Origin: Lysinibacillus capsici
GTDB taxonomy: Bacteria > Bacillota > Bacilli > Bacillales_A > Planococcaceae
Length of the DNA: 40,000 nt
Assembly: GCF_003367505.1 (NCBI RefSeq)
Contig: NZ_PXXX01000022.1
Location: 17,625-57,624 of the forward strand
Direction: 5' to 3'
Below are positions 25,122 through 28,972 of this stretch, in pieces. A program made the position numbers and the translations under genes. How positions within the stretch are numbered: the stretch's first letter is position 1; every line of letters starts with the position of its first letter. Below the pieces are notes generated by a model. It saw only the letters and a list, made by a program, of their open reading frames with translations. It was not told where the DNA came from and did no database searches.

Positions 25122-28100
25122 TTGGCTGTAAATTTGACAGCTGTGTTTCGTCTACGGGATCAAGGTTCTTCGCGCTTACGACGAATCACGGATATGATGA
25201 ATCGAATGAACAGAGCAGGACGTACAGCGAGTGAGGGCATATCGAGAGTACAAACAGCAACTAATCGTCTAGGAAGTACTGTCTCCACAACATCTAATCG
25301 TATGAATGGATTTGCGGCTAGTGTAAGTCGTTTGCACGTCGGATCGAATGGACTGAGTGCGTCTTTCGGTGGGTTACAAAGCACTTTAATTGGACTCGCT
25401 AGCGCATATATGACTGTACAAGGAGCAGCGAAAGCGTTTGATGCAACAATCGGAGCTGCGGCACGTTACGAGCAATCAGAGGTTGCAGTTAAAGCAATAT
25501 TTAATGACCCGAAAAAGTCAGATGCTTATTTGAAGATGGTTGATAAGATGGCGATAGACAGTCCGTTGCTTAATAGTGGAGATATGCTAAAGTCGTCTAA
25601 AACGCTTGTAGCAATGACAAAAGACGTCGGGGATTTAGGTAAAGCATGGTCAATAATTGAACGTCTGATGGTTCTTGATCCTACGCAAGGAACTGACGGA
25701 GCAGCATTTGCCCTTAATTAAGGGGGCAGTAAAAGTGGGTTATATGCTGGAACGAACCTTAGAGCCTAACGTACCAAAGTGTAAAAATCGTTAGGATTGG
25801 TCAATCAGCAGGGAAGGCGACAACCAAGCCACCCTCAACGACTATCGGAATATCCGACTATTATATAGGTGACTATATAATAGAACCCCACCGTGTATAT
25901 CGTGAGATATGCTAATGATATAGTCTGTTCTTTACGTGAAAGCGTAAAGAGTGTAGCAGAAATGACTACACCCTAACTTTAGTGAGTTAGAGTAACAAAA
26001 GGCAAAGAGATGTGGCAAGGAGACGCACTTTCGATGGTTGAGCGTTTTGGATTGAATAAAGGTGAGCTAAACGACATTAAAAAAATGGCAATTCCAGAAC
26101 AAATAGCGGAAATTAATAAAATGCTTAATAAAATGGGTATCACCCAGGAAACTGTAAATGCAATGGGCGAAACTACACTCGGCTATTGGGCGCAGATTCA
26201 AGAACGAGTCGGTAAGTTTTTACGGCAAGTTGGTAATCTCGGTAACTCTAAACTTGGTGAGACACTAGGAAAAATCGTTGAAGCCTTCGATAATATCGAC
26301 CTAGACGGCATGGCAAAAAAGTTAGACGCCAAGCTCGCAGGATTAGTCGATAATGCAATCGCTTTTGGAAAGTTTGTCTGGAAATGGCGAGAGCCAATCG
26401 CTTATATTGCAGGAGCACTTACTGCAGCAATGGGCGCATTTGCCATTGTAGGCGTCATTGCAGCGTTAGCAAATCCAGTTACGTTAATCGCTGCAGGAAT
26501 AGCCGCAGCCGCAGTCGGTTTCAAGGCGCTCTATGATAATAGTAAGGTTTTCAGAGGGTTTATAAACGGTATAAGAAATGCTGTAAAAACGGTTTCAAGG
26601 ATATTTGAGTCTATGTTCATACTAATTAAAGGTGGCTTCAAGGATTATGGTAAAGGACGAAAAATTTTAGAAAATTTAGGACTGGAAGAAAAACAAATAA
26701 AAACAGTTATCCGATTTGCTTATGGCATTAAAGGCGCATTTGATAAGGTGAAAGCTGTTTTCAAAAGTATTTCGTTTATCTTTTCAGGACAACATAAAGC
26801 ATCTATCGACATACTAAAAAGTGTAGGATTTTCTGATGAAAAGATTACTAGTATACGTAAATTCGGAAATAGCCTAAAATCAGCTTTTGACACAGTAGGA
26901 AACATTTTCGGTGGTGTAGGTTCTATATTGTCAGGTGAGGGTTCAGCAGACTTAATAGCTACATTAGGGCTGTCTCCCGAAGTTGCTTCCGTAGTAGACA
27001 GTGTTATCAATAAAATTACATCTAAGATAAAATCACTGTGGAAAGCATTTAAAATGAATGGAGTCAGTGGACTCGTCGATGCAATTTACGGAAAAGGTAC
27101 ATTTGAAGCGATTAAAACGAAATTTGAAGAAGTCAAAGCATATATAGCCGAAAAAGTGACGCAATTTAAAGGTGTATTTGATCGTCTAAAAGAAGCGTTC
27201 TCTAAAGCGTGGACTACTATTTCTGACATCATCTCAAATGTGTGGTCGATTATTGAGCCGTATTTGAGTGGCTTTTGGAACATTTTACAGGTCATTGGGG
27301 ATATCGCAATGAAGGTTTTTGACAACATCATCGCTCCAGCAATCTCGTTTCTAGTTCAACTATTTTCAACGCTGTGGTCAATCGCGAAGCCTGTCCTTGA
27401 ATTATTAGGAATCGCATGGGAGGCGCTCTCAGCAATCATTAAATGGGCATGGGACAACGTGTTGGCTCCGTTAGTTGACTTCATTTTAACTGGCGTTAAA
27501 AACGCGTTAGAAGGATTTTCAGGAGCACTATCTATCGTTCAAGGATGGTTCGAAACACTTAGTGGTTGGATTTCGACTGCAAAGGGACATGTAAAGGACT
27601 TTATCGATTCAATTTCTAATGTTAAATTACCTGGTTGGATTACAAAGGGAATCAGCGCAGGAATAAACTTTGCCGGTAATTTTATTGGTGTTGGGAATGG
27701 GAAGGGTGAGTCTCCGAAATCAAATTATCATGGATTAGATTATGTGCCGTATGACGGTTATTGTATAGCCGCTTAATAGAGAGATCTATTTCGAATAATC
27801 AACCAAAATCGGTAAAAGCTAAGTTGTGAAATCTAATTAACCGAAATTTTACAATATGCTAATACCGAGGTAAGCGAGAACATCACTCGCCACCGTAACG
27901 CATAGGGGTTGAGCGATATGAGAGCAAAAATATCCCCACGAGTGGTTGACACCTTAACGTTAATTTAATGTAGGTGAAAATGTATGCTGAGCCGGGTACG
28001 AATAAGAAATTAGTAAGCGCCTATCGATAAGATATGGTGCTTTTTGACGTACCGTAATGCGAGGAAACTCCCGGAAGTAGAGGATAAAAAGCCTTTACGA

Positions 28101-28311
28101 TAACAAACTGTATTCGGCACGACTACACAAAGGCGAACGCGTTTTAACTGCGCGAGAAAATCGTGATTATTCAGACAGTAACAGCGGTGGTCCAGGCAGT
28201 GGTGTTTTAATCACTGGTAACTCGTTTACAGTACGTGAAGAAGCCGACATTGAGAAAATTGCGTACGGTATTGCAAAACTAATCGAAAAGGAGCGTGTTC
28301 AGATTGGCTAA
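25122..28311 (+). CDS. Tail tape measure protein, three exons: join(25122..25714, 26003..27758, 28111..28311)
   Basis: TTG start after AAAGGAGG. The three segments total 2550 nt = 850 codons including stop; junctions read ...GTDGAAFAL|KEMWQGDALSMVERFG... and ...LDYVPYDG|YSARLHKGERVLTAREN... Confidence 0.85.
25715..26002 (+). ncRNA. Group I intron (IA-like), ORF-less, in tape measure gene
   Basis: P1: exon UGCCCU / IGS GGGGCA with U.G at the splice site (25714.25723); P7 GACUAU 25840-25845 / AUAGUC 25920-25925 following CUCAACGACUAUC; GAAA-capped and other P9-like hairpins; intron ends in G. Confidence 0.88.
27759..28110 (+). ncRNA. Second ORF-less self-splicing-type intron in tape measure gene, group I-like, subclass unassigned
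   Basis: Hairpin CGGUUAU-UGU-AUAGCCG spans the 5' junction with U.G at 27758; intron ends in G28110; possible P7 GGUACG 27995-28000 / CGUACC 28048-28053 enclosing a P8-like stem; removal restores YSARLHKGERVLTARE in frame. Confidence 0.7.
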
Positions 28312-28972
28312 AAGCACTATCGGCATATGGCTCAAAGATCGTAACAACGTCTATAAGCAATTTCCAGTCAATCCAGAAGTAATTAATCGCGAGTCTCCTT
28401 TCGATTTCACTCCTGTAAAAATTGCAAGTCTCGGCGATATTATCATTCCAGGTGAGCGAGGATTGAAGAAGTATTCGTTTAGTTCGTTCTTTCCTCGCGA
28501 CTATAACGCTTCATATTGCGAATACGAGGATTTCATGGAGCCGTGGAAGTGGGTTGAGCAAATTGAAAAATGGCGTGATACACGCCTTAATTTACGTTTA
28601 ATCATTACAGGGACGCCAATTAGCGTTCCTGTATTTATTGAAGCCTTTGATTTAGAGCCAGAGAAGGCTGGAGCACCTGGCGATATTTATTATTCGATAA
28701 CACTTGTTGAACATCGTCCATTTACTGCGAAAGAATTGATTACGGATAGTAAAGGTAAAACAACAGCAACTCCCGTGAAGCAAACGCAAACTGCTGTGGA
28801 GAAAAAGCCTACAACGATAACAGTCGCAAAAGGTGATACATTATGGAAGATTGCGAAATCAAAATACGGTGATGGTGGTAAATGGAGCAAGATATACGAA
28901 GCAAACAAAACTACAATCGGCAAGAATCCAGACGTAATTAAGCCTGGTCAGAAGTTGGTGATCCCTACATGA
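28304..28972 (+). CDS. LysM-domain tail protein (XkdP-like)
   Basis: C-terminal TITVAKGDTLWKIAKSKYGDGGKWSKIYEANKTTIGKNPDVIKPGQKLVIP. Probable TTG start at 28304 behind AAGGAG, overlapping tape measure stop. Confidence 0.9.
   Translation: MAKSTIGIWLKDRNNVYKQFPVNPEVINRESPFDFTPVKIASLGDIIIPGERGLKKYSFSSFFPRDYNASYCEYEDFMEPWKWVEQIEKWRDTRLNLRLIITGTPISVPVFIEAFDLEPEKAGAPGDIYYSITLVEHRPFTAKELITDSKGKTTATPVKQTQTAVEKKPTTITVAKGDTLWKIAKSKYGDGGKWSKIYEANKTTIGKNPDVIKPGQKLVIPT

What the first reader, a model, noticed from the sequence alone, without database searches (positions are those of the whole stretch)
27759..28110. Intron 2: structurally distinct, possibly divergent group I intron
Hairpin CGGUUAU-UGU-AUAGCCG spans the 5' junction with U27758.G27768 in the middle, and the intron ends in G28110. 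Exon 2 starts UAU, which can pair with the AUA of the guide (P10-like). GGUACG 27995-28000 with CGUACC 28048-28053 may be P7, enclosing a strong GCGCCUAUC..GAUAUGGUGC stem as P8. It lacks the obvious IA core seen in intron 1, so it is not a duplicate. It could be a different subgroup, an ORF-deleted IStron, or a less characterised self-splicing RNA.
Basis: inference. Interest (0 to 1): 0.75.

Follow-up and report, generated by a model that had tools for sequence, protein, structure and literature searches.

The report
Group I intron in tape-measure gene
The 352-base gap near the end of this phage tail tape-measure gene is a genuine, intact group I self-splicing intron of a family already described in Bacillus and Lactobacillus phages, so it is real but ordinary.

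Summary
Window 27759-28110 is a 352-nt, ORF-less group I intron. Removing it joins ...GLDYVPYDG|YSARLHKGERVLT..., and the junction DNA (GACGGT|TATTCGGCA) is identical to the uninterrupted tape-measure gene of a Lysinibacillus prophage.

Its "P7" and "P8" are wrong. They are a peripheral insertion in P9, lacking in 18 of the 24 aligned relatives and a plain short hairpin in the other five.

The real core was recovered from 24 non-redundant relatives:
- 98% of cells pair, against 34-46% in slid controls.
- 30 of 48 pairs show compensatory changes.
- The order is P3-P4-P5-P6-P7, P7.1, P3', P8, P7', P9, P9.1, ωG, with the P3/P7 pseudoknot and a bulge-plus-G-C pair in P7.
- This is subgroup IA architecture.

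The family is large.
- It includes TMP-IVS3b of plasmid pBWB404, published as an IA1 group I intron.
- It includes the terminase intron of Lactobacillus phage JCL1032, reported as self-splicing.

Rfam's single group I model misses the whole family, which is why the intron looked distinct.

Verdict: new member of a known kind. Interest is low.

The parts
27755..27771 (+). P1. 5' exon CGGU plus intron UAU, loop UGU, internal guide AUAGCCG. U27758·G27768 marks the 5' splice site. AUA 27765-27767 can also pair with exon 2 UAU (P10).
   Evidence: In relatives the guide sequence changes with the exon: UUCGGU/GCCGAA, UGGGU/GCCCA, GGAGCU/GGCUCC, CGCU/GGCG and others.
27775..27790 (+). P2 hairpin AAUAGA / UCUAUU, capped by the GNRA tetraloop GAGA.
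   Evidence: By eye, four relatives carry a GNRA-capped hairpin at this position: GAAA in L003 and L063, GUAA in L037 and L038.
27799..27805 (+). P3 5' strand UCAACCA, followed by J3/4 AAA (27806-27808).
   Evidence: helix 1: 7 pairs, 100% paired, 6 with compensatory changes. RNAalifold recovered it independently.
27809..27868 (+). P4 (UCGGU 27809-13 / ACCGA 27864-68) enclosing A-rich J4/5 and J5/4, P5 (AGC/GCU) and P5a (27823-32 / 27846-55). In relatives this is where the homing-endonuclease ORF sits. Here it is ORF-less.
   Evidence: helices 2-3; 552-955 nt excised at this point in 14 of 24 representatives. LAGLIDADG and HNH ORFs in relatives; no ORF here.
27869..27894 (+). P6 (GGU/ACC) and P6a (GCGAG/CUCGC).
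   Evidence: helix 4: 100% paired, G-C changes to C-G and A-U..
27898..27904 (+). P7 5' strand: A27898, bulged C27899, GCAUA 27900-04. G27900-C27987 is the inferred guanosine-binding pair.
   Evidence: helix 5: 100% paired. A-U/G-C covariation occurs at two positions, including the pair across the bulge.
27905..27936 (+). P7.1 hairpin (GGGGU / AUCCC, with a conserved UGA...AAUAUAAU-type internal loop). It lies between P7 5' and P3 3', which is the subgroup IA signature.
   Evidence: helix 6: 5 of 5 pairs covary, 98% paired.
27937..27949 (+). Conserved joiner CACGAG, then P3 3' strand UGGUUGA (27943-49). This closes the P3/P7 pseudoknot.
27950..27976 (+). P8 hairpin CACCU ... AGGUG.
   Evidence: helix 7: 5 of 5 pairs covary..
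27977..27988 (+). J8/7 AAAAUG, then P7 3' strand UAUGCU.
27989..28074 (+). J7/9 GAG, then P9 as a three-way junction. Stem CCGG/CCGG (27992-95 / 28071-74). Branch P9b is GAG-GAAA-CUC (28061-70) with a GNRA loop.
   Evidence: (helices 8-9). 18 of 24 relatives have only a simple GNRA-capped P9.
28077..28098 (+). P9.1 hairpin GUAGAGG - AUAAAAAG - CCUUUAC.
   Evidence: In 52 distinct variants collected without reference to this hairpin, the stem is 92% paired and all 7 positions covary. The loop AUAAAAAG is conserved in 41 of 52.
28099..28110 (+). 3' tail GAUAACAAACUG. C28108-U28109 can pair with A27990-G27991 (P9.0). G28110 is ωG and the 3' splice site.
   Evidence: the ORF is restored in 26 of 28 loci using the terminal G, and the P9.0-type pair is Watson-Crick in 17 of 26; the tail is GAUAAC or GGUAAC in 50 of 52.
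28111..28312 (+). Exon 3 of the tape-measure gene (YSARLHKGERVLT...VQIG*). It has no start codon of its own.

Best explanation
Window 27759-28110 is an intact, ORF-less group I intron of subgroup IA. It belongs to the lineage published as IA1 in prophage tape-measure and terminase genes, and it interrupts the last 67 codons of the tape-measure gene.

Inferred mechanism, the standard group I pathway:
1. The internal guide AUAGCCG pairs with the exon end CGGU, placing U27758·G27768 at the cleavage site (P1).
2. A free guanosine bound at the G27900-C27987 pair of P7 attacks after U27758.
3. The terminal G28110 then replaces it in the same pocket. It is positioned by the P9.0 pair (AG 27990-91 with CU 28108-09) and by P10 (exon UAU with AUA 27765-67).
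4. The 3' OH of U27758 attacks after G28110, ligating the exons to read ...YDG-YSARLHKGERVLT....

What is shown and what is inferred: the secondary structure, the splice-site logic and the family membership are shown here. Catalysis in this particular copy is inferred.

The intron has no homing endonuclease. It is probably inherited passively or spread by recombination with endonuclease-bearing relatives.
For: Precise excision:
- Joining 27758 to 28111 restores the frame.
- Five Lysinibacillus prophage homologues are uninterrupted at this site. L130 has the identical 15-nt junction.
- tblastn hits in other phages cross the junction in a single piece.

Group I core:
- On 24 non-redundant relatives, 48 pairs are 98.0% paired against 34-46% when slid. 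30 pairs show double changes, and 0 of 500 shuffles reach the observed values.
- RNAalifold finds the same nested helices de novo.
- P3 and P7 cross as in all group I introns.
- P7 has the bulged nucleotide followed by an invariant G-C pair.
- P7.1 sits between P7 and P3.

Splice-site rules across the family:
- A U·G wobble in P1 tracks different exons.
- A terminal G restores long ORFs in 26 of 28 loci, in several sites of tape-measure genes, in a split DNA-polymerase gene and in other ORFs that were not identified.

Integrity: the window copy matches the consensus at 104 of 108 conserved columns. Two of the four deviations are one compensated P3 pair.

Published relatives:
- The pBWB404 tape-measure intron, TMP-IVS3b, classed IA1 in PMC2504315, carries the same P3, P7 and 3' hairpin.
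- The terminase gene of phage JCL1032 is annotated as a two-piece join. Its intron is a clear family member. It is cited as experimentally self-splicing in PMC6669764, ref. 64.

Exon 3 has no in-frame start codon, so it can only be expressed after splicing.
Against: - There is no match to Rfam RF00028 even at E<=10. The same model also misses the published JCL1032 intron and four other relatives, so this reflects model coverage rather than the RNA.
- There is no experimental splicing data for this copy.
- P1 has only 4 exon base pairs and a tight 3-nt loop.
- The large P9a insertion is unusual within the family and could in principle slow folding.
- The IA1 label rests on homology to a published intron. 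It was not tested with a subgroup-specific model.
Confidence: 0.92

Rival explanations
1. It is a decayed group I intron that no longer splices. The phage then makes a tape-measure protein truncated five residues after the junction (…YDGYCIAA*), and the last 67 codons are dead.
For: The intron has no homing endonuclease ORF. It carries a 57-nt insertion in P9 that most relatives lack. Stop codons TAA TAG follow at 27774-27779. No splicing data exist for this copy.
Against: 104 of 108 family-conserved positions are retained and every helix is intact. The downstream exon is still open, in frame, and 45-63% identical to intron-less homologues through the conserved ARLHKGERVLT motif. That would not be expected of an untranslated remnant.
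Confidence: 0.05
2. It is a new class of self-splicing or structured RNA that only mimics group I at its ends.
For: No Rfam family matches. The canonical GAUAUAGUC element is absent.
Against: The covariation-supported helices reproduce the full group I order and the P3/P7 pseudoknot, with a bulged P7, A-rich J3/4, P9.0 and P10. Members of the same family are already published as group I introns.
Confidence: 0.02
3. It is some other kind of insertion: an IStron remnant, a group II intron, a translational bypass element, or an intergenic spacer between two separate genes.
For: The gap contains stops in all three frames.
Against: There is no transposase or reverse-transcriptase ORF, nor any ORF of 40 aa or more. 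No group II or other Rfam hit was found. 352 nt is far longer than known bypass gaps. The downstream piece has no start codon. Homologues are contiguous at exactly this point.
Confidence: 0.01

Closest known systems
TMP-IVS3a/3b and term-IVS1 group I introns (class IA1) of Bacillus cereus-group prophages (Tourasse & Kolstø 2008, PMC2504315)
   Same: - The host gene type is the same (siphophage tape measure).
- The pBWB404 copy (L127 28553-28789) has the same P7 (GCAUA/UAUGC), the CACGAG-P3' joiner, the identical 25-nt P9.1 hairpin and the GAUAAC tail.
- IMG/VR relatives at that same site (FFG|TMYEDQG) share the window's P4-P6 region and its three-way P9 (L033, L067).
- Endonuclease ORFs come and go, as that paper describes.
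   Different: - The insertion site differs: the C-terminal ...YDG|YSARLHKGE rather than FG|TMYEDQG, with a correspondingly different guide sequence.
- The host is Lysinibacillus-like rather than Bacillus cereus group.
- The pBWB404 copy has a divergent P4-P6 region.
- The window copy has an enlarged P9a branch.
Terminase large-subunit intron of Lactobacillus delbrueckii phage JCL1032 (Riipinen & Alatossava 2004, cited in PMC6669764)
   Same: Every core element is collinear with the window intron: P1 ACGGU/GCCGU, P3 GUGCGGU/ACCGCAC, AAA, P4 UCGGU/ACCGA, P7 GCAUA/UAUGC, CACGAG, GNRA-capped P9, the AUAAAAAG loop and the GAUAAC tail. It is cited as proven self-splicing.
   Different: - The host gene is different.
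- It is shorter (about 220 nt) and has a simple P9.
- The P9.1 stem differs by compensated changes.
Intron 1 of the same gene (window 25715-26002), and classical phage IA2 introns such as T4 td and Twort orf142 (the latter from memory)
   Same: Same catalytic class and the same gene. The general IA layout is shared: P7.1/P7.2-type insertion, P9 extensions and a UAACA-type tail before ωG.
   Different: Intron 1 carries the canonical AAUGAUAUAGUCU element and scores 47.3 bits on RF00028. Intron 2 has P7 = GCAUA/UAUGC and J8/7 = AAAAUG, and scores nothing. The two are separate acquisitions, not duplicates.
IStron (CdISt1-type group I intron fused to an IS200/605 element)
   Same: A group I ribozyme in a Firmicute protein-coding gene.
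   Different: There is no IS module or remnant at the 3' end. The intron ends 12 nt after P9.1.

Membership tests
Group I intron | P1 helix between the 5' exon end and an internal guide sequence, with a U·G wobble at the cleavage site | tested here: met
   U27758·G27768 within CGGUUAU/AUAGCCG. The guide covaries with the exon in more than 20 loci at different insertion sites.
Group I intron | The intron's last nucleotide is G (ωG) | tested here: met
   G28110. Using the terminal G restores long ORFs in 26 of 28 family loci. The junction is identical to the empty site in L130.
Group I intron | Conserved core order P3-P4-P5-P6-P7-P3'-P8-P7' with the P3/P7 pseudoknot | tested here: met
   98% paired, 30 of 48 pairs compensatory, slid controls 34-46%. 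P3 and P7 cross. Nested helices were recovered de novo.
Group I intron | Guanosine-binding site in P7: a bulged nucleotide on the 5' strand followed by a conserved G-C pair | tested here: met
   The pattern A/G, bulge C/A, G-C (invariant in 24 of 24), with the flanking pair covarying A-U to G-C (columns 141-147 / 263-268). That this pair binds G is inferred, not shown.
Group I intron | P9.0 and P10 pairings that position the 3' splice site | tested here: inconclusive
   The P9.0-type pair (J7/9 GA-X with X'-U before ωG) is Watson-Crick in 17 of 26 loci, with G-C, C-G and A-U seen. The other 9 fail: 8 end AAUG and 1 ends AAAG (tallied by hand). P10 is 3 bp in the window and 4-6 bp in several relatives, judged by eye.
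Group I intron | Match to the curated covariance model Rfam RF00028 | tested here: not met
   No hit at E<=10. The model also misses the published JCL1032 intron and four other relatives, so the criterion is uninformative for this lineage.
Group I intron | Guanosine-dependent self-splicing | not testable with these tools
   Reported for the JCL1032 relative, at second hand via PMC6669764.
Group I, subgroup IA (IA1) | Extra P7.1/P7.2 element between the P7 5' strand and the P3 3' strand | tested here: met
   P7.1 at 27905-27936. 5 of 5 pairs covary (helix 6).
Group I, subgroup IA (IA1) | Assignment to IA1 rather than IA2 or IA3 | tested here: inconclusive
   Rests on homology to TMP-IVS3b of pBWB404, which its authors class as IA1. 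No subgroup-specific model was available.
Mobile (homing) group I intron | Intron-encoded homing endonuclease | tested here: not met
   No ORF of 40 aa or more inside 27759-28110. Relatives carry LAGLIDADG or HNH ORFs. In 14 of 24 aligned representatives a 552-955 nt insert sits in the P5 loop.
IStron | IS200/605-type transposase module fused to the 3' end of the ribozyme | tested here: not met
Group II intron | Six-domain structure with domain V; usually more than 600 nt | tested here: not met
   The element is 352 nt. No Rfam group II hit. The helices found are those of group I.

The most novel reading that the evidence does not exclude
This lineage may deserve recognition as a distinct, unmodelled branch of subgroup IA. 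Its marks are P7 = GCAUA/UAUGC, J8/7 = AAAAUG, a near-invariant AUAAAAAG loop on P9.1 and a GAUAAC tail. The invariant loop and tail might perform a function beyond ordinary peripheral stabilisation, for example a lineage-specific tertiary clamp or a protein-binding site. Alternatively, incomplete splicing at this C-terminal site could be used to tune production of full-length versus truncated tape-measure protein.
Probability: 0.1. Interest if true: 0.4.

Novelty: new member of a known kind. Interest (0 to 1): 0.2.

Why it matters
For this genome, the three tape-measure ORF pieces (25122-25714, 26003-27758, 28111-28312) should be annotated as one gene with two group I introns. They are not pseudogenes or separate proteins.

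More generally, the standard Rfam group I model is blind to a large phage intron lineage. Those hits include many split tape-measure genes, at least one split polymerase gene and one split terminase gene. A covariance model built from the alignment made here would fix a recurring mis-annotation of phage genes. This does not change what is known about ribozymes.

Tried and rejected
- Rfam scans, at gathering threshold on the whole window and at E<=10 on 3.6 kb and on 411 nt, gave nothing for intron 2. This turned out to be a limit of the model, not evidence about the RNA.
Those stems lie in a P9 insertion that 18 of 24 aligned relatives lack.
- My first guess that UCGGU/ACCGA was P3 was rejected once the true long-range P3 (27799-805 / 27943-949) appeared. 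UCGGU/ACCGA is P4.
- The apparent ultra-conservation of the 25-nt 3' hairpin was an artefact of selecting loci with that exact pattern. A scan anchored on J8/7-P7 instead shows the stem covaries freely, and only the loop and tail are fixed.
- An exact 42-mer from the intron found nothing in one-genome-per-species GTDB contigs, so the source genome itself was not identified. The nearest tape-measure homologues are Lysinibacillus prophages.
- An automatic P1 finder was too noisy. It was replaced by 5' splice sites assigned by hand and checked by reading frame.
- No covariance model was built.
Full report
**The locus.** On the + strand the tape-measure gene is broken into three open pieces: 25122-25721, 26010-27776 and a start-less stretch ending at 28312. 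The finding concerns the second gap. Reading frames show that joining 27758 to 28111 gives ...NYHGLDYVPYDG|YSARLHKGERVLTAREN..., a frame shift of +1 over 352 nt. TATT is repeated at both ends, so the junction can slide over four positions. Only 27758|28111 leaves a U at the exon end and a G at the intron end.

**Independent proof of the boundaries.**
- A protein-guided scan of one genome per species found five Lysinibacillus prophage tape-measure genes, 45-70% identical.
- All five are uninterrupted at this point.
- Lysinibacillus sphaericus OT4b.31 reads ...TACGACGGTTATTCGGCAAGG..., which is the window's exon end and next exon start with nothing between them.
- tblastn of the spliced peptide against phage genomes also gives single-piece alignments across residue 48|49, in Brevibacillus, Sporosarcina and Clostridium phages.
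- The downstream piece has no in-frame ATG, GTG or TTG, and no + strand ORF is called there. It can therefore only be expressed by splicing.

**Database models.** Rfam 15 gives nothing for this region at gathering threshold or at E<=10, even when only 411 nt are searched. Intron 1 of the same gene scores 47.3 bits on RF00028. This difference is what made intron 2 look distinct.

**Relatives.**
- blastn found partial matches in Caldibacillus phage CBP1 (split tape-measure gene), 6ec-like Staphylococcus phages and Arcanobacterium phage TPWB06 (tape measure), Clostridium phages and Bacillus phages.
- It also matched Alicyclobacillus phage MMB025. There a DNA-polymerase gene is split by an 'endonuclease' ORF followed by the matching RNA.
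- In 14 of 24 non-redundant representatives, a 552-955 nt insert sits at one point of the RNA.
- The MMB025 ORF is a LAGLIDADG protein, and the ORF between the tape-measure pieces of Bacillus phage BMBtp13 is an HNH nuclease.

This is the usual picture of a mobile group I intron family with interchangeable homing-endonuclease genes.

**Structure.** I aligned 24 representatives, with ORFs excised, from just upstream of the conserved AAAAUCGGU motif to the 3' exon (A1). I then wrote out the helices seen by eye, including one pseudoknot.
- The count of structure pairs gives 98.0% of 1152 cells paired. Shuffles give 81.7% and slid partners give 34-46%.
- 30 of 48 pairs have changes on both sides.
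- None of 500 shuffles reaches any observed measure.
- RNAalifold, which cannot draw pseudoknots, independently returned the same P3, P4, P5/P5a, P6/P6a, P7.1, P8, P9 and P9.1.

**Helix order in window coordinates.**

| Element | Coordinates | Sequence or note |
|---|---|---|
| P1 | 27755-27771 | exon CGGU + UAU / AUAGCCG |
| P2 | 27775-27790 | GAGA loop |
| P3 5' | 27799-27805 | UCAACCA |
| J3/4 | 27806-27808 | AAA |
| P4 | 27809-13 / 27864-68 | encloses P5 and P5a |
| P6 / P6a | 27869-27894 | |
| J6/7 | 27895-27897 | GUA |
| P7 5' | 27898, 27900-04 | A, bulged C27899, GCAUA |
| P7.1 | 27905-27936 | |
| joiner | 27937-27942 | CACGAG |
| P3 3' | 27943-27949 | UGGUUGA |
| P8 | 27950-27976 | |
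| J8/7 | 27977-27982 | AAAAUG |
| P7 3' | 27983-27988 | UAUGCU |
| J7/9 | 27989-27991 | GAG |
| P9 | 27992-28074 | three-way junction |
| P9.1 | 28077-28098 | |
| tail, ωG | 28099-28110 | GAUAACAAACUG |

This is exactly the group I core. P3 encloses P4-P6 and the 5' strand of P7, and P7 closes around P3' and P8. The extra hairpin between P7 and P3' defines subgroup IA.

P7 has the classical form: a pair, a bulged base, then an invariant G-C, where group I introns bind guanosine. The pair across the bulge switches A-U to G-C in 9 against 15 sequences. Only the two middle pairs of P7 differ from the textbook GACUA/UAGUC. This removes the familiar GAUAUAGUC string.

GGUACG/CGUACC and the GCGCC stem lie inside P9.
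- Eighteen of the 24 aligned relatives have a plain GNRA-capped P9 hairpin.
- Six sequences (the window, L001, L033, L039, L067, L123) have a three-way P9: stem, side hairpin and a GNRA-capped hairpin.
- In the window the side hairpin is further enlarged.

These stems are peripheral decoration, not the catalytic core.

**Splice-site logic across the family.**
- For 28 loci I assigned the 5' splice site from P1: the exon U opposite a guide-sequence G just upstream of P2. I then asked which terminal G keeps both exons open.
- In 26 loci the first in-frame G after the GAUAAC tail does so. It gives sensible peptides across the junction in several tape-measure sites (e.g. ...FG|TMWEDQG), in the split polymerase gene (...LRKAIG|KKQADL) and in other ORFs that were not identified.
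- The guide sequence changes with the exon: GCCGAA, GCCCA, GGCUCC, GGCG, GUCGC and others. This is the signature of group I exon recognition.
- The third base of J7/9 (GA-X) is Watson-Crick to the base two before ωG in 17 of 26 loci. G-C, C-G and A-U are all seen, which fits a P9.0 pairing. The other 9 fail: 8 end AAUG and 1 ends AAAG.
- In the window this pair is AG 27990-91 with CU 28108-09.

**Integrity of this copy.** The window sequence agrees with the consensus at 104 of 108 columns that are at least 85% conserved among the other 23 sequences. Two of the four exceptions are the two sides of one P3 pair, A-U for G-C. The RNA folds well below shuffled controls, with z = -4.3. It contains no ORF of 40 aa or more.

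**Is the family known? Yes.**
- Tourasse and Kolstø (PMC2504315) described group I introns at three sites of prophage tape-measure genes in the Bacillus cereus group. They classed the IVS3 introns and a related terminase intron as IA1. They noted that these introns carry unrelated endonuclease genes and adapt P1 to new sites.
- One of these, TMP-IVS3b, lies on plasmid pBWB404. That plasmid's tape-measure gap ends with the exact 25-mer and has the same P3 (UUGCGGU/ACCGCGA), P7, CACGAG and tail.
- IMG/VR relatives at the same site and with the same P1, but with the window's type of P4-P6 and an HNH-like ORF (L033), fit the paper's TMP-IVS3a. That identification is my inference.
- The terminase gene of Lactobacillus phage JCL1032 is deposited as a two-piece join. 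Its intron is collinear with the window's in every element.
- JCL1032's introns are cited as experimentally self-splicing (Riipinen and Alatossava 2004, via PMC6669764). I did not read the original paper.
- RF00028 fails on this published intron too, and on four other relatives. The Rfam negative therefore says nothing about membership.

**The 3' hairpin.** My first sample was chosen by the exact 25-mer, so the hairpin's invariance there meant nothing. Only 4 of 108 unique hits carried the exact 25-mer. Among 52 distinct hairpins from that set:
- the 7-bp stem is 92% paired, with several pair types at every position;
- the loop AUAAAAAG is conserved in 41 of 52;
- the following GAUAAC or GGUAAC is conserved in 50 of 52.

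P9.1 is therefore a real helix, and its loop and the tail are under sequence constraint. I could not assign a partner to either.

**Verdict.** The element is a new copy, at what appears to be a different insertion site and in a Lysinibacillus-like phage, of a published IA(1) phage intron lineage. Its practical value is for annotation: it merges the tape-measure pieces into one gene and exposes a gap in Rfam coverage. Interest is 0.2.

Noticed in passing
window 25715-26002: Intron 1 of the same tape-measure gene is a classical group I intron: RF00028 47.3 bits, E 3.5e-10, just under the gathering score of 50, with the AAUGAUAUAGUCU element. Comparison with intron-less Lysinibacillus homologues (...GAAFAL|KEMWQGD) places the junction at U25714|C26003. 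P1 is GCCCU/GGGGGC and ωG is G26002.
   Followed up: partly
L128 2474-2696 (phage JCL1032), L001-L004, window 27759-28110: Rfam 15's only group I model (RF00028) gives no hit at E<=10 for any member of this intron lineage, including a published self-splicing one.
   Followed up: partly
window 28084-28091 and 28099-28104; 52 relatives from L134-L246: The P9.1 loop AUAAAAAG and the following GAUAAC/GGUAAC are nearly invariant, while the P9.1 stem covaries freely. No pairing partner or role was identified for either.
   Followed up: partly
L013, L017, L085, L090, L154, L160, L161, L201: In some relatives coding-looking sequence runs right up to J8/7-P7' or into P9. This suggests endonuclease ORFs inserted at P8 or P9 rather than in the P5 loop used by most members.
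   Followed up: no
L004 2871-2948 (Staphylococcus phage PT1-1): About 1.3 kb downstream of the family-member intron there is a canonical GAUGAUAUAGUCUGA element. It points to a second, classical group I intron in the same region that the record does not annotate.
   Followed up: no
window 25122-28312 vs L129-L133: The closest tape-measure homologues are intron-less genes in Lysinibacillus prophages (45-70% identity). The window therefore probably comes from a Lysinibacillus-like phage or prophage. An exact 42-mer from the intron was absent from the species-representative genomes.
   Followed up: partly
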